Below are positions 7,988 to 14,095 of a DNA stretch of 44,005 bases, piece after piece. The notes under the pieces were generated by a model. That model saw nothing but the letters and a program-made list of their open reading frames with translations, was not told where the DNA came from and did not search any database. Every line of letters starts with the position of its first letter. The stretch's first letter is position 1. The position numbers and the translations under genes were made by a program. This DNA is from Vectrevirus T205P4. The stretch lies in the sequence record OZ035727.1; one strand, 5' to 3'.

Positions 7988-8340
7988 TCTCGCCCTCGCC
8001 CTCGCCGGATTTCCCCCATACGGGTCCGCGCTGCGGTTGGCTTGGGAATTGGGCTGGGCTGGTCCGTCTTCAACCTGCTGCCGCAGGAAGCTCGACGGGT
8101 GGGCGAGGGCTTGCCTTGTACTCGCTTAGTGGTACACAAGGAGAACGCCTAGGAAGCGCTAGGGCACGCCTTAGTATTGGACAAGGTGATTGCCTTAGTT
8201 CAACCGCTTAGGGCTTACACGGGCCGTTTTAGGGCCATTCCTGAGCGTTTGACAGGGTGTGAGGGCGTGGGCTATCTGTTCGTTTCGCTACGCTTCACTC
8301 ACTGCTCCTCACTTCGTTCGTCGCTGCGGTAGCCTGATGT
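7988..8340. other. GC-rich non-coding block, candidate genome terminus / direct terminal repeat
   Basis: Clearly more GC-rich than the rest of the window by eye; begins TCTCGCCCTCGCCCTCGCC and contains TTTCCCCCATACGGG, resembling the T7 left-end motif TTCCCCCATAGGGGG; no credible ORF. Confidence 0.45.
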
Positions 8341-8700
8341 GTACCTTAGGTTATTACTTGATGGATAGCTTAGGTTATAGCTTAGTGGCCTACCTTAGTT
8401 ATAACCTTAGTGCATAGCTTAGTATCAGCTTAGTAGTGTACCTTAGTAAGTCTTAGTGTCTTCTCTTAGTGATTGCACATGCAAGCATGTAAGATGCCAT
8501 TAGGTCGCGGTCGGTAGACCGCTAAAGAAGGAGAATAGTAATAAGATGCAGTAGGAGGAACACCAGAAACCTAGCCAACCTAGCCTATCCTAGCTCTGTA
8601 TCTATTGCTTTTCCTTAGTCTCACACGTTAGACAACCTAGGTTTGTCTTAGTAGTTGCGACATGTATCACATAAATAATCTATCTTAGTGCGATTTAGTG
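8340..8700. repeat. Array of short CTTAGT/CTTAGG motifs (more than 15 copies) in the terminal non-coding region
   Basis: Motif recurs at irregular 10-25 nt spacing (e.g. agcttaggttatagcttagtggcctaccttagttataaccttagtg...); analogous to the CCTAAAG repeats near the T7 left end. Confidence 0.6.
8618..8633. repeat. Degenerate copy of the 16-bp palindrome (GTCTCACACGTTAGAC, 1 mismatch)
   Basis: One substitution relative to the GTCTCACACGTGAGAC family. Confidence 0.4.
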
Positions 8701-8729
8701 TTGACATAGGCAGTTAACAGGTATACATT
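8701..8729 (+). promoter_or_regulatory. Host sigma70-type early promoter (TTGACA-N17-TACATT)
   Basis: Perfect -35 hexamer, 17-bp spacer, 4/6 -10; position equivalent to T7 A1-A3 early promoters. Confidence 0.6.
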
Positions 8730-8881
8730 AGCAATCAGTCGGGAGCGACATTAAATACTCAGGGTGAATGATAGAGAGCGTCCTTAACTATCCGGCCTAG
8801 CTACTGAAGCCGTTAAACAATGTTAGATAGTGGAAGATGGCGCAAGCATAACCTGCCACGATAAACCAAGGTTAGCGCAAT

Positions 8882-8894
8882 GCTCTTTAACAAT
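8882..8894 (+). promoter_or_regulatory. GCTCTTTAACAAT motif, copy 1 (putative RNase III processing site core)
   Basis: Same 13-mer as I recall at the T7 R0.3 RNase III site (ACGCTCTTTAACAATCTGG); lies just upstream of an early gene. Confidence 0.4.
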
Positions 8895-8952
8895 TTGCTT
8901 AGTGTAACCTATGTATGCCGTGGTTAATTACTTATTGAATGAGGAATTAGCT

Positions 8953-9132
8953 ATGACATTAAATAACCGTGAACTATCCGTTCTCTTCACTCTGTTGTGC
9001 TACATGATTCGTAACAACGAATTGCTTACAGATGACGAGTTGGCACTGTATCACCGCTTTCTTAACGAAGGTTGGACCGATACAGTTAATCAATACCGTA
9101 ACATGATAGATGAGTTGAGGGGGGGTAAATAA
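8953..9132 (+). CDS. Hypothetical early protein, about 59 aa
   Basis: GAGGA RBS before ATG at 8953; first gene after the host promoter. Confidence 0.5.
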   Translation: MTLNNRELSVLFTLLCYMIRNNELLTDDELALYHRFLNEGWTDTVNQYRNMIDELRGGK

Positions 9133-9356
9133 TGTATCAACATGAGGTATTCTTTGAATCAGCTAGCGAAGCTATTCGCTTCCGTGATGATATGATGCAA
9201 GCTGGTGTAGGCGTTGATGTGTATCACTATTTGATAGATTACGACACTGAATATCACCGAGTTACCTTAGTATCTGAGTATGACAACCAAGTCATTACTG
9301 AGTATCTAGGCAGTGAAGATTACGATTACGATGAAGTAATCACGACAAATCTCTAA
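9132..9356 (+). CDS. Hypothetical acidic early protein, 74 aa (D/E/Y-rich)
   Basis: GAGGGGGG RBS; stop/start coupled to the previous gene; strongly acidic composition. Confidence 0.55.
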   Translation: MYQHEVFFESASEAIRFRDDMMQAGVGVDVYHYLIDYDTEYHRVTLVSEYDNQVITEYLGSEDYDYDEVITTNL

Positions 9357-9364
9357 ATTAACTG

Positions 9365-9393
9365 TTGACAGCCACGGCATACAAGGTTACATT
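9365..9393 (+). promoter_or_regulatory. Second host sigma70-type early promoter (TTGACA-N17-TACATT)
   Basis: Identical architecture to the promoter at 8701. Confidence 0.6.
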
Positions 9394-9426
9394 AAGCATC
9401 AAGACGGCGACGTCTTTAAACATCCC

Positions 9427-9439
9427 GCTCTTTAACAAT
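9427..9439 (+). promoter_or_regulatory. GCTCTTTAACAAT motif, copy 2 (putative RNase III site), flanked by inverted repeats ATCAAGAC / GTCTTGAT
   Basis: 13-mer identical to copy 1; inverted repeat arms at about 9401-9408 and 9450-9457 could form the long stem. Confidence 0.45.
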
Positions 9440-9485
9440 ACGGTTTGTGTCTTGATAGGCTAACTAACTAACTAAGGTAATTATC

Positions 9486-9596
9486 ATGAAAGGGTTAATT
9501 TGTGTAGAACGTATGGTCAATGGTAAACTTGAAATATTACCACTGGAAAACCAATCTAGCTTCAAAGAGTGGTATGGCTGTTTCTCACTGATTTAA
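9486..9596 (+). CDS. Hypothetical small early protein, 36 aa
   Basis: TAAGGT RBS; small ORF between RNase III-like sites; below track cutoff. Confidence 0.3.
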   Translation: MKGLICVERMVNGKLEILPLENQSSFKEWYGCFSLI

Positions 9597-9638
9597 GGTA
9601 AAGGCTGGCACTAGTCAGCCTATCAAGGCGCAAACCAA

Positions 9639-9651
9639 GCTCTTTAACAAT
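9639..9651 (+). promoter_or_regulatory. GCTCTTTAACAAT motif, copy 3 (putative RNase III site) upstream of ocr
   Basis: Third identical 13-mer (AAGCTCTTTAACAATTTGG). Confidence 0.4.
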
Positions 9652-9745
9652 TTGGATGGTAGCTTCTTAGTCTGGATAGGTTAAACCTAGGGTATTCTTT
9701 TGAGTACCCTATAATGTAACCTAACTAACTAATGAGGATTAAATC

Positions 9746-10075
9746 ATGGAACGCAATGCTAACGCTTACTACAACCTTCTGGCTGCAACTGTTGAAGCAT
9801 TCAACGAGCGTATTCAGTTTGATGAGATTCGCGAAGGTGATGATTACTCTGATGCACTACATGAGGTTGTAGACAGCAATGTTCCAGTTTATTACAGCGA
9901 AATCTTTACAGTGATGGCTGCTGATGGTATTGATGTTGATTTTGAGGATGCTGGTTTGATTCCTGACACGAAGGATGTAACCAAGATTCTACAAGCTCGC
10001 ATCTATGAAGCTCTTTATAATGATGTACCAAATGACAGCGATGTAGTTTGGTGTGAAGGCGAAGAAGAGGAATAA
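9746..10075 (+). CDS. ocr: Ocr-like anti-restriction DNA-mimic protein (T7 gp0.3 homolog), 109 aa
   Basis: [45 protein letters not shown] aligns with T7 Ocr [45 protein letters not shown]; acidic C-terminus; TGAGGA RBS. Confidence 0.88.
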   Translation: [109 protein letters not shown]

Positions 10076-10182
10076 TAAGATGGAAAGGCAATATAACTTC
10101 ATATTTTCAGACGGTGTGACCTTAAAATGTTCCTTGCGATTTGCGCAGATTCGTGAGGAAGTACTAGGAACTACATACAAGC

Positions 10183-10208
10183 TATTTAGATGACACTATA
10201 AGAGAAGA
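10183..10208 (+). promoter_or_regulatory. Variant phage-promoter-like sequence (ATTTAGATGACACTATAAGAGAAG)
   Basis: Matches the consensus upstream half, but the initiating region is ATAAGAG instead of ATAGAAG; may be weak or non-functional. Confidence 0.35.
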
Positions 10209-10269
10209 CTTAACAAGGCGTTGCTACGGTAGCGCCTGATTAAACTTTCACTTACTAGGAGTTGAGATT

Positions 10270-10455
10270 ATGAAAACCTTGATTGGATGCTTCTTGTTGG
10301 CTTCTCTTGCTCTGGCATTTACCGCTAAAGCTGGTTATGACGCTTATAAAGTAGAACAAGCCCAGCAAGACTGGGCCAAAAAGTTCAACTTGTGCAGCAA
10401 GAGCAACACCTACGAGTACTGCAACAAAACACTAAGACACTTATGGAAAGAGTAA
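10270..10455 (+). CDS. Small secreted protein, 61 aa, with signal peptide (MKTLIGCFLLASLALAFTAKA) and Cys pair
   Basis: AGGAG RBS; canonical signal peptide with AxA-like site; mature part about 40 aa. Confidence 0.6.
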   Translation: MKTLIGCFLLASLALAFTAKAGYDAYKVEQAQQDWAKKFNLCSKSNTYEYCNKTLRHLWKE

Positions 10456-10462
10456 CTAGCCT

Positions 10463-10484
10463 ATAGCCCACCTGAGTGGGCTAT
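10463..10484 (+). terminator. Hairpin (ATAGCCCAC-CTGA-GTGGGCTAT) after the secreted-protein gene
   Basis: 9-bp stem with 4-nt loop, followed by GTGATATTTA; weak U-tract. Confidence 0.4.
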
Positions 10485-10519
10485 GTGATATTTACTTACC
10501 ACTATATAAGGTGATTACT

Positions 10520-11404
10520 ATGACTACTGAAAACACCCTCGTGTCTGTCCGTGAAGCTGCAACCGCTGAAATCAAGCAACATTTAGACAATATCGGCACT
10601 TCTTACATCAAAGTAGGGGCTTGTCTGAATGAGTTACGCGGAGACTTTGAAGGTCAAAAAGAGTTTTTAGCCTATGTTGAAGCAGAGTTTGCCATTAAGA
10701 AGGCACAATGTTACAAGCTGATGAGTGTAGCCCGTGTCTTTGAAGGCGATGATCGCTTTAAAGGCGTGGCGATGCGTGTAATGCTGGCGCTTGTTCCTTT
10801 CGCTGATGAAAATATCATCATGGAGAAAGCCGCAGAACTTGCCGCAGCGGGCAAGCTGGACACTAACGCCGTGAACGCCCTGATTGAGCCTAAGAAAGAG
10901 CCAAAGTCTGAGACGGTACAATCCAAGGCTGAGCCTGTAAAACCGCAGGAGAACGCGACTGCGGCCGCAGAATCCCAGGAAACGCAAGCGCCGCAGGAAG
11001 TGCCGCCAGCAAGTGAGTCGGATGACGACAAATCAGCACCGTGGGAAGAGGAAAGCAAGCCGGAAGCGCCAAAGGCCGCGCCACTGGACAACACGGCTAA
11101 CACTGAAAACGCCGCTATGACTGGCCTACTGGCACAAATTAAGGCACTGACTGAGCAATTACAGGCAGCTAACGACCGCATCGCCGCCCTAACCAGTGCA
11201 CGTGAAAGCAAGAAGGCAGCCGCGCCTATGCTTCCCCAATTCAAATCTAAATGTTTCTATGCTCGCTTGGGTTTAAGCGCTGAGGAGGCAACGAAGAAAA
11301 CAGCAGTTAACAAGGCACGCCGCGAACTGGTTAAGCTAGGCTATGGTGAAGGCCATGAAGCATGGGCCTCAATCTCTGAGGCAGTAGAAGAATTAACTAA
11401 GTAA
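10520..11404 (+). CDS. Hypothetical early protein, about 294 aa, with long acidic Pro/Glu/Ala-rich low-complexity linker
   Basis: AAGGTG RBS before ATG at 10520; sits where T7 has the gene 0.7 kinase, immediately upstream of the RNAP gene, but I see no kinase motifs. Confidence 0.7.
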   Translation: MTTENTLVSVREAATAEIKQHLDNIGTSYIKVGACLNELRGDFEGQKEFLAYVEAEFAIKKAQCYKLMSVARVFEGDDRFKGVAMRVMLALVPFADENIIMEKAAELAAAGKLDTNAVNALIEPKKEPKSETVQSKAEPVKPQENATAAAESQETQAPQEVPPASESDDDKSAPWEEESKPEAPKAAPLDNTANTENAAMTGLLAQIKALTEQLQAANDRIAALTSARESKKAAAPMLPQFKSKCFYARLGLSAEEATKKTAVNKARRELVKLGYGEGHEAWASISEAVEELTK

Positions 11405-11467
11405 CCTTATCGGTGGCATCTTCTTAGGTGTCACCTATTAAGGTTTCTTTCACTAGGAGTAAACAAG

Positions 11468-14095
11468 ATGCAAGACTTACACGCTATTCAACTTCAACTT
11501 GAAGAAGAAATGTTTAACGGCGGTATCCGTCGCTTTGAAGCGGACCAACAACGCCAGATTGCATCCGGTAATGAATCAGACACGGCATGGAATCGCCGCT
11601 TATTGTCTGAGTTAATCGCGCCAATGGCTGAAGGCATTCAGGCATACAAGGAAGAGTATGAAGGTAAAAGAGGCCGTGCACCGCGTGCATTGGCTTTCAT
11701 TAACTGCGTTGAAAACGAAGTGGCAGCATATATCACGATGAAAATCGTTATGGACATGCTGAATACAGACGTTACCTTACAAGCCATCGCTATGAATGTA
11801 GCAGACCGCATCGAGGACCAAGTACGTTTTAGCAAGCTGGAAGGTCACGCCGCCAAATACTTTGAGAAAGTTAAGAAGTCACTTAAGGCAAGTAAGACTA
11901 AATCATATCGCCATGCGCACAACGTAGCGGTCGTGGCTGAGAAGTCTGTATCTGACCGTGACGCGGACTTTTCCCGCTGGGAGGCATGGCCCAAAGATAC
12001 CTTGTTGCAAATAGGTATGACACTGCTAGAAATCTTGGAGAATAGCGTATTCTTTAACGGGCAACCTGTTTTCCTCCGCACCTTGCGCACTAATGGCGGC
12101 AAACACGGTGTTTACTACTTACAGACCAGCGAACACGTTGGCGAGTGGATAACTGCATTTAAGGAACATGTAGCGCAGCTTAGTCCTGCCTATGCGCCTT
12201 GCGTCATCCCTCCGCGTCCGTGGGTGTCGCCTTTTAATGGTGGATTCCACACTGAGAAGGTAGCAAGTCGTATCCGTCTTGTTAAAGGCAACCGCGAGCA
12301 CGTACGCAAGCTCACTAAGAAGCAAATGCCAGCCGTTTACAAGGCTGTTAATGCTTTGCAGGCAACTAAATGGCAGGTTAACAAGGAAGTATTGCAGGTT
12401 GTTGAAGATGTAATTCGTCTCGACCTTGGTTATGGTGTGCCTTCCTTTAAGCCGCTTATCGACCGCGAGAACAAGCCAGCTAATCCAGTGCCGTTAGAGT
12501 TCCAGCACCTGCGAGGCCGTGAACTTAAAGAGATGCTAACGCCGGAACAATGGCAAGCCTTCATCAACTGGAAAGGCGAATGTACCAAGCTGTATACCGC
12601 TGAAACTAAGCGCGGCAGCAAGTCGGCGGCAACCGTTCGCATGGTCGGGCAGGCCCGTAAATACAGCCAGTTTGACGCAATATACTTCGTGTATGCACTG
12701 GATAGCCGTTCGCGCGTTTATGCGCAATCTAGCACGCTCTCGCCGCAATCAAACGACCTAGGCAAGGCGTTACTGCGTTTCACCGAAGGGCAGCCTCTAA
12801 ATAGCTCTGAGGCGCTTAAGTGGTTTTTGGTGAACGGGGCGAATAACTGGGGTTGGGATAAGAAAACCTTTAACGTGCGCACCGCTAACGTGCTGGATGG
12901 TGAATTCCAAGACATGTGCCGCGACATTGCAGCCGACCCGCTGACCTTCACTCAATGGGTGAATGCAGATTCACCTTATGGCTTTCTTGCGTGGTGCTTT
13001 GAATACGCGCGTTATCTGGATGCACTGGATGAAGGAACACAAGATAAATTCATGACGCATTTACCAGTACATCAAGATGGTAGTTGTTCTGGTATCCAGC
13101 ACTATAGCGCGATGTTACGCGATGAAGTAGGTGCGAAAGCGGTAAACCTCAAGCCGTCAGACGAGCCGCAAGATATTTATGGGGCCGTTGCGCAAGTAGT
13201 TATCCAGAAAAACTATGCTTACATGAATGCAGATGATGCAGAAACTTTCACATCTGGAAGCGTAACACTTACAGGTGCAGAACTGCGTAGCATGGCTGGC
13301 GCGTGGGATATGATAGGTATCACTCGCGGCTTAACCAAAAAGCCGGTAATGACCTTGCCTTACGGCTCCACCCGCTTAACCTGCCGTGAGTCAGTGATTG
13401 ATTATATCGTTGATTTGGAAGAAAAAGAGGCACAACGAGCTATTGCAGAAGGGCGGACGGCGAATCCTGTTCACCCTTTTGATAATGACCGCAAAGATTA
13501 CCTGACACCGGGCGCAGCTTACAACTATATGACTGCTTTAATTTGGCCTTCTATCTCTGAGGTTGTTAAAGCTCCTATAGTGGCGATGAAAATGATTCGC
13601 CAGCTTGCACGATTCGCAGCTAAAAGAAACGAAGGGCTAGAGTACACCTTACCTACTGGTTTCATCTTGCAACAAAAGATAATGGCTACCGACATGCTAC
13701 GCGTATCCACTTGCTTGATGGGTGAAATCAAGATGAGTCTACAGATTGAGACTGATGTAGTGGATGAAACGGCAATGATGGGCGCTGCCGCTCCTAACTT
13801 TGTTCACGGGCATGATGCTAGTCATCTCATCCTGACTGTATGTGACCTCGTTGACAAGGGCATTACATCTATCGCAGTCATCCATGATTCCTTTGGTACT
13901 CATGCAGGCCGTACAGCAGACCTGCGGGATAGCTTAAGGGCAGAAATGGTGAAGATGTATCAAGGTCGTAATGCTCTGCAAAGCCTGTTAGATGAGCATG
14001 AGGAGCGCTGGTTAGTAGACACCGGAATCCAAGTGCCAGAGCAAGGGGAGTTTGACCTTAACGAGATATTAGTATCTGACTATTGCTTTGCATAA
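11468..14095 (+). CDS. Single-subunit DNA-dependent RNA polymerase, SP6-type, 875 aa
   Basis: N-terminus [32 protein letters not shown]... and C-terminus ...[10 protein letters not shown]...DYCFA match my recollection of SP6 RNAP; conserved catalytic region [18 protein letters not shown]. Confidence 0.97.

What the first reader, a model, noticed from the sequence alone, without database searches (positions are those of the whole stretch)
9746..10075. Clear Ocr (T7 gp0.3) homolog in a phage with SP6-type RNA polymerase and promoters
The 109-aa product aligns over its core with T7 Ocr, the DNA mimic that blocks type I restriction enzymes and BREX. Its presence predicts resistance to those systems and shows the early region is T7-like even though the transcription machinery is SP6-like.
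Basis: partly seen in the sequence, partly recalled or inferred. Interest (0 to 1): 0.5.

Follow-up and report, generated by a model that had tools for sequence, protein, structure and literature searches.

The report
Known Ocr anti-restriction gene, K1-5-type phage
The 109-codon gene is a real but already annotated copy of the phage T7 Ocr "DNA-mimic" protein, which disarms bacterial restriction enzymes; it is identical to gene 3 of coliphage K1-5, so the finding is correct and ordinary.

Summary
Window 9746..10075 (+) is an intact 109-aa ORF with a GAGGA ribosome-binding site. It matches Pfam PF08684 (ocr) at 106.7 bits against a cutoff of 25. It is 50% identical to T7 gp0.3 over 98 residues with no gaps (E 1e-33).

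It is not new. The protein is 109/109 identical to K1-5 gp3 (YP_654101), which RefSeq names "ocr-like anti-restriction". The window is a permuted Vectrevirus (K1-5/K1E-like, SP6 group) genome. SP6 has its own Ocr homologue (gene 5) at the syntenic position, regarded as a putative anti-restriction protein since 2004.

The functional hallmarks are kept: 28 acidic against 6 basic residues, 24 of T7's 27 acidic positions, all six residues of the patch needed for EcoKI inhibition, dimer residue F54, and BrxX-contacting E67. dN/dS is 0.06-0.09.

The claim of a "T7-like early region" holds only in part. Only ocr, its leader (rrn-type boxA plus a hairpin) and the RNA polymerase gene have T7 counterparts.

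Vectrevirus genomes carry one of two about 55%-identical ocr alleles, swapped as CDS-sized cassettes. Each allele is closer to a T7-like phage's Ocr than to the other allele.

Anti-restriction activity remains inferred.

The parts
9746..10075 (+). ocr gene (109 aa plus stop): homologue of T7 gp0.3, identical to K1-5 gp3
9734..9738 (+). Shine-Dalgarno GAGGA, 7 nt upstream of the ATG
   Evidence: sequence read
9663..9737 (+). Strong RNA hairpin in the ocr leader (-34.6 kcal/mol, z = -5.3). Its position and partial sequence match the hairpin upstream of T7 gene 0.3, which is the R0.3 RNase III site (own knowledge). A processing role here is inferred.
   Evidence: The window and LI10P3 copies differ by one compensatory change (U-A to G-C), read from the alignment.
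9639..9651 (+). GCTCTTTAACAAT: exact E. coli rrn-type boxA (Nus-factor antitermination signal), 107 nt upstream of the ocr ATG. T7 has the same 12-mer 112 nt upstream of gene 0.3.
   Evidence: The rrn boxA sequence is from PMC2724277 Table 1.
9427..9439 (+). second boxA copy, just downstream of the 9365 promoter
8882..8894 (+). third boxA copy, upstream of early gene 1 (8911..9132)
9365..9393 (+). sigma-70-type promoter-like site TTGACA-17-TACATT, the nearest candidate host-RNAP promoter upstream of ocr
   Evidence: consensus match only; the total number of such sites is not above shuffles
8701..8729 (+). sigma-70-type promoter-like site with identical hexamers, at the start of the early operon
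10080..10193 (+). gene 4 (37 aa), 4 nt after the ocr stop. The ocr poly-Glu codons GAAGAAGAGGAA supply its SD. It is a homologue of SP6 gene 53 and has no T7 counterpart.
10184..10204 (+). First SP6-type phage promoter after the genome's left end (ATTTAGATGACACTATAAGAG).

Best explanation
This is the Ocr (gp0.3-type) anti-restriction gene of a K1-5/K1E-like Vectrevirus. It lies about 1.76 kb from the point where the K1-5 left end maps (window ~7990). It follows sigma-70-type promoter-like sites and rrn-type boxA elements, and it precedes the phage RNAP gene and the first phage promoter. The host RNA polymerase therefore most probably transcribes it within the first minutes of infection (inferred from sequence layout and from T7 biology). 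The 12.4-kDa, very acidic protein (net charge -22) is predicted to fold and dimerise like T7 Ocr, forming a mimic of bent B-form DNA. [quoted passage not shown] Like T7 Ocr, it may also bind host RNAP and could be sensed by the PARIS (AriAB) system. Shown here: homology, conservation of the functional residues, purifying selection, and gene position. Inferred: fold, dimerisation, expression timing, and all activities.
For: Homology: PF08684 at 106.7 bits; T7 Ocr in PDB at E 2.6e-27; 50% identity with no gaps; 100% identity to K1-5 gp3, annotated 'ocr-like anti-restriction'. Charge: 28 D/E against 6 K/R; 24 of the 27 T7 acidic positions within residues 1-109 are acidic here. All six residues of the mature E59/D62/E64/E66/D67/D73 patch are acidic here. 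Neutralising that patch (Mut3/Mut12) abolished EcoKI inhibition in vitro (PMC3439906). C-terminal truncations Ocr99 and Ocr109 still block restriction, so the shorter tail here is compatible with activity. F54 is present and invariant in 35 homologues; F54A abrogates dimerisation and F54V escapes PARIS (PMC9122126). E67, which forms a salt bridge to BrxX R1145, is kept (PMC11842806). Purifying selection: dN/dS is 0.06 against K1F and 0.09 against K1E. Structure: in a Foldseek PDB search with the AF2 model, the only hits below E = 1 are five T7 Ocr chains (prob 1.00). Position: sigma-70-like sites lie at 8701 and 9365; no SP6-type promoter core lies between the left end and ocr, and the first is at 10192. 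The gene order is syntenic with SP6 genes 5-53-6-7-8. The leader is homologous to the T7 0.3 leader, including boxA.
Against: No functional test of this protein or of K1-5/K1E gp3 was found. It is only 50% identical to the characterised T7 protein. The AF2 models are of modest confidence (pLDDT 60.8 and 66.8; TM to 1s7z only 0.47-0.50), so the fold rests mainly on sequence identity. The promoter calls are consensus matches, and their number is not enriched over shuffles.
Confidence: 0.9

Rival explanations
1. It is an Ocr-fold protein whose main job in this phage is not anti-restriction. Instead it would shut off host transcription by binding E. coli RNA polymerase, as T7 Ocr can do in vitro. 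This would make up for the absence of a gp0.7-kinase or gp2-type host-RNAP inhibitor in the early region.
For: T7 Ocr binds host RNAP and competes with sigma (PMC7064336, listed). No T7 gp0.7 homologue was detected in the window's pre-RNAP early genes.
Against: The residues shown to matter for type I R-M and BrxX binding are all conserved. Both activities rest on the same DNA mimicry, so this is an added role rather than an alternative one. SP6's homologue was linked to growth on restricting Salmonella (PMC4837284).
Confidence: 0.07
2. The K1-5/K1F-type allele has a defence spectrum different from the T7/SP6-type allele. It might inhibit or evade other systems, or avoid Ocr-sensing systems such as PARIS. 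The two alleles would then be kept in Vectrevirus by balancing selection.
For: Two alleles about 55% identical (53-56%) are swapped as exact CDS cassettes between genomes that are 98-100% identical in the upstream flank. In the phage database, 23 records carry the window-type allele and 46 carry the other type. PARIS is triggered by Ocr and escaped by a single Ocr substitution.
Against: Both alleles keep F54, the central acidic patch and the overall charge. PARIS responds to diverse, negatively charged proteins (PMC11464382), so escape by allele swap is not obviously expected. Neutral mosaicism is common in phage early regions; the neighbouring gp5 is swapped too.
Confidence: 0.2
3. It is a chance ORF or a decaying remnant with no function.
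For: None found.
Against: The ORF is intact and has an SD. dN/dS is 0.06-0.09 even though synonymous sites are near saturation against K1F (pS 0.71). Homologues occur in 573 phage records and in 428 clusters of the protein database.
Confidence: 0.01

Closest known systems
Escherichia phage K1-5 gp3 (YP_654101.1, 'ocr-like anti-restriction')
   Same: 109/109 residues are identical. Gene order and flanks are the same (97% DNA identity over 1 kb).
   Different: K1-5 gp3 has one extra C-terminal Glu (110 aa).
T7 gp0.3 Ocr (NP_041954; PDB 1S7Z), the characterised prototype
   Same: 50% identity with no gaps over residues 1-98. It is in the same Pfam family. 24 of 27 acidic positions, F54, E67 and the mature 59-73 acidic patch are shared. 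It is likewise an early gene behind host promoters, with the same boxA-hairpin leader.
   Different: The window protein is 8 residues shorter, with a different and shorter acidic tail. It has net charge -22 against -28. It is the third or fourth gene of the early operon rather than the first. It sits in a phage of another subfamily (RNAP only 32% identical).
K1F gp0.3 and Kayfunavirus / Klebsiella T7-like Ocr proteins
   Same: 82-84% identity over the 109-aa core, and the same 'MERNANAYY' N-terminus. These are the closest relatives outside Vectrevirus.
   Different: K1F-type proteins are mostly 162-175 aa, with a roughly 60-aa C-terminal extension that is absent here. DNA similarity (74.5%) is confined to the CDS, and synonymous sites are near saturation, so any transfer is old.
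SP6 gp5 and the second Vectrevirus allele (e.g. LI10P3, LL11, AAPEc6)
   Same: Syntenic position upstream of genes 53/6/7 and the RNAP. Same Pfam family.
   Different: Only 52-56% identical to the window protein. They belong to the 'MAMSNMTY' clade with T7 (SP6 gp5 is 77% identical to T7 Ocr, LI10P3 66%).

Membership tests
Ocr / T7 gp0.3 DNA-mimic anti-restriction proteins (Pfam PF08684) | Significant match to the family profile above the curated threshold | tested here: met
   PF08684 at 106.7 bits against a cutoff of 25, E 9e-31, covering 93 of 101 profile positions. PHROG 2568 at E 6e-51.
Ocr / T7 gp0.3 DNA-mimic anti-restriction proteins (Pfam PF08684) | Direct pairwise homology to the characterised T7 protein | tested here: met
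   49/98 identical, no gaps, E 1e-33. phmmer against 1s7z: E 2.6e-27.
Ocr / T7 gp0.3 DNA-mimic anti-restriction proteins (Pfam PF08684) | Small (about 110-120 aa), extremely acidic polypeptide whose Asp/Glu residues imitate DNA phosphates | tested here: met
   109 aa, 28 D/E against 6 K/R, net charge -22. 24 of 27 T7 acidic positions are conserved as acidic.
Ocr / T7 gp0.3 DNA-mimic anti-restriction proteins (Pfam PF08684) | Central acidic patch (mature E59, D62, E64, E66, D67, D73) required for EcoKI inhibition | tested here: met
   All six positions are D or E in the window protein. The requirement is from PMC3439906.
Ocr / T7 gp0.3 DNA-mimic anti-restriction proteins (Pfam PF08684) | Dimer-interface residue F54 (homodimer needed for full activity) | tested here: met
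   F54 is present and invariant in the 35-sequence alignment. Its role is described in PMC9122126. Dimerisation itself was not tested.
Ocr / T7 gp0.3 DNA-mimic anti-restriction proteins (Pfam PF08684) | Elongated all-helical Ocr fold | tested here: inconclusive
   The AF2 models are all-helical but of modest confidence (pLDDT 60.8 and 66.8). The five best Foldseek PDB hits are all T7 Ocr chains (prob 1.00), but TM is only 0.47-0.50; the next hit has E = 1.9. The fold is expected from 50% ungapped identity.
Ocr / T7 gp0.3 DNA-mimic anti-restriction proteins (Pfam PF08684) | Early gene at the leading (left) end, transcribed by host RNAP before the phage RNAP is made | tested here: met
   The gene starts about 1.76 kb from the mapped left end. 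Sigma-70-like sites lie at 8701 and 9365. The first phage promoter core is at 10192, downstream of ocr. The RNAP gene starts at 11468. This is sequence layout only; transcription was not measured.
Ocr / T7 gp0.3 DNA-mimic anti-restriction proteins (Pfam PF08684) | Binds and inhibits type I R-M enzymes and BREX BrxX/PglX | not testable with these tools
   This needs plating or binding assays. No published test of the K1-5-type protein was found.
T3-type gp0.3 SAM hydrolase (the non-homologous occupant of the same locus in T3-like phages) | Sequence match to a SAMase family instead of Ocr | tested here: not met
   Pfam returned only PF08684 at E <= 1. PHROGs returned only 'ocr-like anti-restriction'.
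ArdA-type DNA-mimic anti-restriction proteins | Sequence match to the ArdA family | tested here: not met
   No ArdA family appeared in the Pfam scan at E <= 1, and no ArdA structure appeared among the PDB sequence hits.

The most novel reading that the evidence does not exclude
Vectrevirus populations maintain two deeply diverged Ocr alleles (about 55% identical). They are exchanged as exact CDS-sized cassettes between otherwise near-identical genomes. Each allele is closer to the Ocr of a T7-like (Studiervirinae) phage than to the other allele. If selection maintains this polymorphism, the two alleles would differ in which defence systems they inhibit or trigger (for example type I R-M families, BREX variants, or PARIS-type Ocr sensors). 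That would make ocr a swappable counter-defence module shared across two phage subfamilies.
Probability: 0.2. Interest if true: 0.45.

Novelty: already known. Interest (0 to 1): 0.12.

Why it matters
Mostly it does not matter beyond correct annotation. The gene is already named in RefSeq for K1-5, K1E and many relatives, and Ocr biology is well worked out for T7. Practically, these K1-capsule-specific phages are therapy candidates, and an Ocr gene predicts two things. It predicts insensitivity to type I R-M and BREX in new hosts. It also predicts possible vulnerability to PARIS-carrying strains. The secondary observations could give a small natural experiment on how counter-defence genes and their regulatory leaders move between phage subfamilies. 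Those observations are the two ocr alleles swapped as cassettes, and the boxA-hairpin-ocr leader conserved from T7 to SP6-group phages.

Tried and rejected
1. AF2 without an alignment gave a poor model (pLDDT 60.8).
2. AF2 with 35 homologues, all at least 79% identical, improved only to pLDDT 66.8 and pTM 0.61.
3. An Rfam scan of 8100-11600 found nothing relevant; the only hit was a chance miRNA match at E 0.12.
4. The Scholl et al. 2004 SP6/K1-5 genome paper is not held, so its statements are cited second-hand through PMC4837284.
5. Literature searches for a functional test of K1-5, K1E or Vectrevirus Ocr found only annotation-level mentions.
6. I looked for recent horizontal transfer from K1F. 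DNA similarity is only 74.5%, stops exactly at the CDS ends, and synonymous sites are near saturation. Recent transfer is rejected; old exchange or shared ancestry remains possible.
7. The first tblastn of gene 4 used the wrong frame (10081). It was redone with 10080..10193, with the same conclusion: a homologue in SP6 and none in T7.
8. Short folds around the two upstream boxA copies (8835-8915 and 9385-9490) were no more stable than shuffles. Only the ocr-proximal hairpin is supported.

Full report

Yes. The ORF listing gives an ORF at 9746..10075 on the + strand: 109 aa, ATG start, TAA stop. A GAGGA Shine-Dalgarno lies 7 nt upstream of the ATG.

- The protein matches Pfam PF08684 "DNA mimic ocr" at 106.7 bits (cutoff 25, E 9e-31), covering 93 of 101 profile positions.
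- It matches PHROG 2568 "ocr-like anti-restriction" at E 6e-51.
- Against all PDB sequences, the only real hits are T7 Ocr chains (1s7z and nine further entries, E 2.6e-27).
- BLASTP against T7 gp0.3 taken from NC_001604 gives 49/98 identities (50%), 70% positives, no gaps, E 1e-33.

**2. What is the window?**

Megablast places it in the genus Vectrevirus (Molineuxvirinae, the SP6 group). The 1-kb region around the gene is 97% identical to K1-5. The first 25 kb is 91-95% identical to several Vectrevirus genomes.

The window is a circularly permuted whole genome. The K1-5 left end maps near window 7990, so the gene starts about 1.76 kb from the left end.

- The RNAP (11468..14095, 875 aa) is 87% identical to SP6 RNAP over the 514 residues available, and 32% identical to T7 RNAP.
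- There are twelve GACACTATA promoter cores, all on the + strand, against 0.43 expected. Eight of them match the 21-nt SP6 consensus with at most 3 mismatches.

The "SP6-type polymerase and promoters" part of the title is correct.

**3. It is already known.**

The protein is 109/109 identical to K1-5 gp3 (YP_654101.1). RefSeq names that protein "ocr-like anti-restriction"; the only difference is one extra terminal Glu in K1-5.

- SP6 itself has a homologue, gene 5, at the syntenic position. It scores 214 bits on PF08684.
- Bardina et al. 2016 (PMC4837284) cite Scholl et al. 2004 for SP6 gp5 as a putative anti-restriction protein. They suggest it lets SP6 grow in Salmonella with or without its type I systems.
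- A 2026 paper states that Vectrevirus isolates encode Ocr (PMC13005862).
- tblastn finds homologues in 573 phage records. The protein database returns 428 clusters, and the 120 listed all carry PF08684.

**4. Does it keep what Ocr needs?**

Because the alignment to T7 is ungapped, positions map one to one.

- The protein has 28 Asp/Glu against 6 Lys/Arg (net charge -22; T7 is -28).
- Of the 27 T7 acidic positions within residues 1-109, 24 are acidic here.
- Roberts et al. 2012 (PMC3439906) showed that neutralising mature E59, D62, E64, E66, D67 (with or without D73) abolishes EcoKI inhibition in vitro. Other five- or six-residue patches can be neutralised without loss. All six of these positions are D or E in the window protein.
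- The same paper shows that C-terminal truncations Ocr99 and Ocr109 still block restriction. The shorter, different tail here (…[18 protein letters not shown]) is therefore compatible with activity.
- F54 is present and invariant in 35 homologues. F54A abrogates dimerisation and F54V lets T7 escape PARIS (PMC9122126).
- E67, which forms a salt bridge to BrxX R1145 in the cryo-EM complex (PMC11842806), is kept.
- Nei-Gojobori dN/dS is 0.06 against K1F and 0.09 against K1E, which indicates strong purifying selection.

Structure prediction was only moderately informative. The model reached pLDDT 60.8 without an alignment and 66.8 (pTM 0.61) with 35 close homologues. In Foldseek against the PDB, the five best hits are all T7 Ocr chains (prob 1.00, TM 0.47-0.50), and the next hit has E = 1.9. 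I count the fold criterion as inconclusive by modelling but expected from 50% ungapped identity.

**5. How it most likely works.**

*Shown by sequence.* The gene lies downstream of two sigma-70-type promoter-like sites with identical hexamers (TTGACA-17-TACATT, at 8701 and 9365). It lies upstream of the first phage-type promoter after the left end (10184-10204) and of the RNAP gene.

*Inferred from T7 biology and the cited papers.*
- Host RNAP transcribes the gene as the left end enters the cell.
- The acidic dimer mimics bent B-DNA.
- It occupies the DNA groove of type I R-M enzymes (PMC3439906) and of BrxX/PglX (PMC7261183, PMC11842806), protecting the unmodified genome.
- It may also bind host RNAP (PMC7064336).
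- It could trigger PARIS (PMC9122126, PMC11464382).

None of these activities has been tested for this protein, as far as the searches show.

**6. Is the early region "T7-like"?**

Only in part. tblastn of the eight genes from the left end through the RNAP against the whole T7 genome gives hits only for ocr (50%) and the RNAP (32%). These genes are 8911 (gp1), 9132 (gp2), 9486 (36 aa), ocr, 10080 (gp4), 10270 (gp5), 10511 (gp6) and the RNAP.

The other six have no Pfam match, and they fall in unknown-function PHROGs or match nothing. gp1, gp4, gp6 and, weakly (E 0.001), gp2 do have SP6 counterparts.

What is T7-like is the ocr module including its leader.
- The 13-mer GCTCTTTAACAAT occurs three times in the early region (8882, 9427, 9639). 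No exact copy, and only one one-mismatch copy, occurs elsewhere in the window.
- It is the E. coli rrn boxA: the rrn boxA-spacer RNA is ugcucuuuaacaauuua (PMC2724277 Table 1).
- The same 12-mer occurs exactly once in the 39.9-kb T7 genome, at 813-824, which is 112 nt before the gene 0.3 ATG. In the window the distance is 107 nt.
- It also occurs in the left-end stretches fetched from K1F, SP6, K1-5, K1E and LI10P3.
- Between boxA and the ATG, the window has a very stable hairpin (9663-9737, -34.6 kcal/mol, z = -5.3). T7 has one in the same place (z = -3.0).
- The leaders of the window, LI10P3, T7 and SP6 gene 5 align through boxA, the hairpin, a CTAACT motif and the SD.
- The window and LI10P3 hairpins differ by a compensatory U-A to G-C change (read).
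- In T7 this hairpin is the R0.3 RNase III site (my own knowledge; it is not in the feature table).

I therefore infer Nus-factor-assisted read-through and RNase III processing of the early transcript, as in T7. This is not tested.

**7. An extra observation: two ocr alleles.**

The pairwise matrix separates two clades.
- The "MERNANAYY" clade holds the window, K1-5, K1E (NC_007637) and K1F. These are 82-100% identical to each other.
- The "MAMSNMTY" clade holds T7, SP6 gp5 (77% identical to T7) and Vectrevirus LI10P3 (66% identical to T7).
- Identity between the two clades is 50-56%.

Both clades occur in both subfamilies, although the RNAPs of those subfamilies are only about 32% identical.

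In the phage collection, 23 records carry an allele at least 90% identical to the window's. Another 46 records are at least 90% identical to LI10P3's, and all of them are 43.6-46 kb. The names K1E and T147P1 each appear with both alleles.

Identity between the window and LI10P3, scored in 40-column windows of the alignment:

| Window coordinates | Feature | Identity |
|---|---|---|
| 9238 to about 9677 | upstream flank | 95-100%, then 78-90% up to the ATG |
| 9737-10075 | the ocr CDS | 28-72% |
| 10075-10254 | gene 4 and intergenic | 78-95% |
| 10255-10453 | gp5 | 25-50% |
| from about 10454 | downstream | 98% |

So ocr and gp5 are each exchanged as CDS-sized cassettes.

Similarity to K1F DNA (74.5%) is confined to 9746-10071. 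Synonymous sites are near saturation (pS 0.71). Any inter-subfamily exchange is therefore old.

Whether the polymorphism is selected (different defence spectra, or sensor avoidance) or is neutral mosaicism cannot be decided here. I give the selected reading about 0.2.

**8. Verdict.**

The "T7-like early region" claim is partly supported: the ocr module, its leader and the overall layout are T7-like, while the other early genes are not. The functional prediction is well founded but untested. Interest is low. The allele-cassette polymorphism and the conserved boxA-hairpin leader are the only items worth a further look.

Noticed in passing
window 8882-8894, 9427-9439, 9639-9651; also L007 (T7) 813-824, L003 (K1F) 669-680, L004 (SP6) 656-667 and 926-937: There are three exact copies of the E. 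coli rrn-type boxA antitermination sequence GCTCTTTAACAA(T) in the host-transcribed early region. The same 12-mer occurs once in T7, just upstream of gene 0.3, and in the early leaders of K1F, SP6, K1-5, K1E and LI10P3. This suggests Nus-factor-dependent read-through of early transcripts across both phage subfamilies.
   Followed up: partly
window 9663-9737: A very stable hairpin (-34.6 kcal/mol, z = -5.3) lies between boxA and the ocr start. It aligns with the hairpin upstream of T7 gene 0.3 (the R0.3 RNase III site, from my own knowledge). It shows one compensatory change relative to LI10P3.
   Followed up: partly
window 9737-10075 and 10255-10453, compared with L005 (Vectrevirus LI10P3): ocr and the next-but-one gene gp5 are each replaced by divergent alleles. 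gp5 is 61 aa with a signal-peptide-like N-terminus (MKTLIGCFLLASLALAFTAKA). DNA identity is 28-72% over ocr and 25-50% over gp5, within a background that is 95-100% identical in the upstream flank and at about 10454 onward (78-95% in the stretch between the two cassettes). The cassette boundaries coincide with the CDS ends.
   Followed up: partly
window 9442-9466 and 9612-9636: A 25-nt inverted repeat (88% complementary) brackets the 36-aa ORF 9486..9596. Each arm abuts a boxA copy. It could be long-range RNA pairing or a module boundary. K1E has two extra genes (2.5 and 2.8) at this spot.
   Followed up: no
window 10061-10082: The poly-Glu tail codons of ocr (GAAGAAGAGGAA), followed by TAATAAG and ATG, form the Shine-Dalgarno for gene 4 (10080..10193). 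A similar 22-mer (GAAGGAGAATAGTAATAAGATG) occurs at 8527-8548.
   Followed up: no
L003 (K1F) 1114-1623; proteins P0028-P0120 of 162-175 aa: K1F/Kayfunavirus-type Ocr proteins carry a roughly 60-aa C-terminal extension that is absent from the window protein and from T7 Ocr. One database member has an extra precomputed Pfam hit, PF26807. The function of the extension is unknown.
   Followed up: no
GenBank records MG004687, OR424384, KP791807, OL964750, KX130726 (hits): In several deposited phage genomes the feature under the Ocr match is labelled 'protein kinase' or 'putative protein kinase'. One is labelled 'receptor binding protein kinase' and another 'similar to N4-like RNA polymerase'. These look like annotation errors.
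   Followed up: no
window 8340-8470: An array of short CTTAGT/CCTTAGG-type direct repeats lies near the genome's left end, between the mapped terminal region and the first early promoter. It recalls the repeat arrays next to the terminal repeats of T7-like phages.
   Followed up: no
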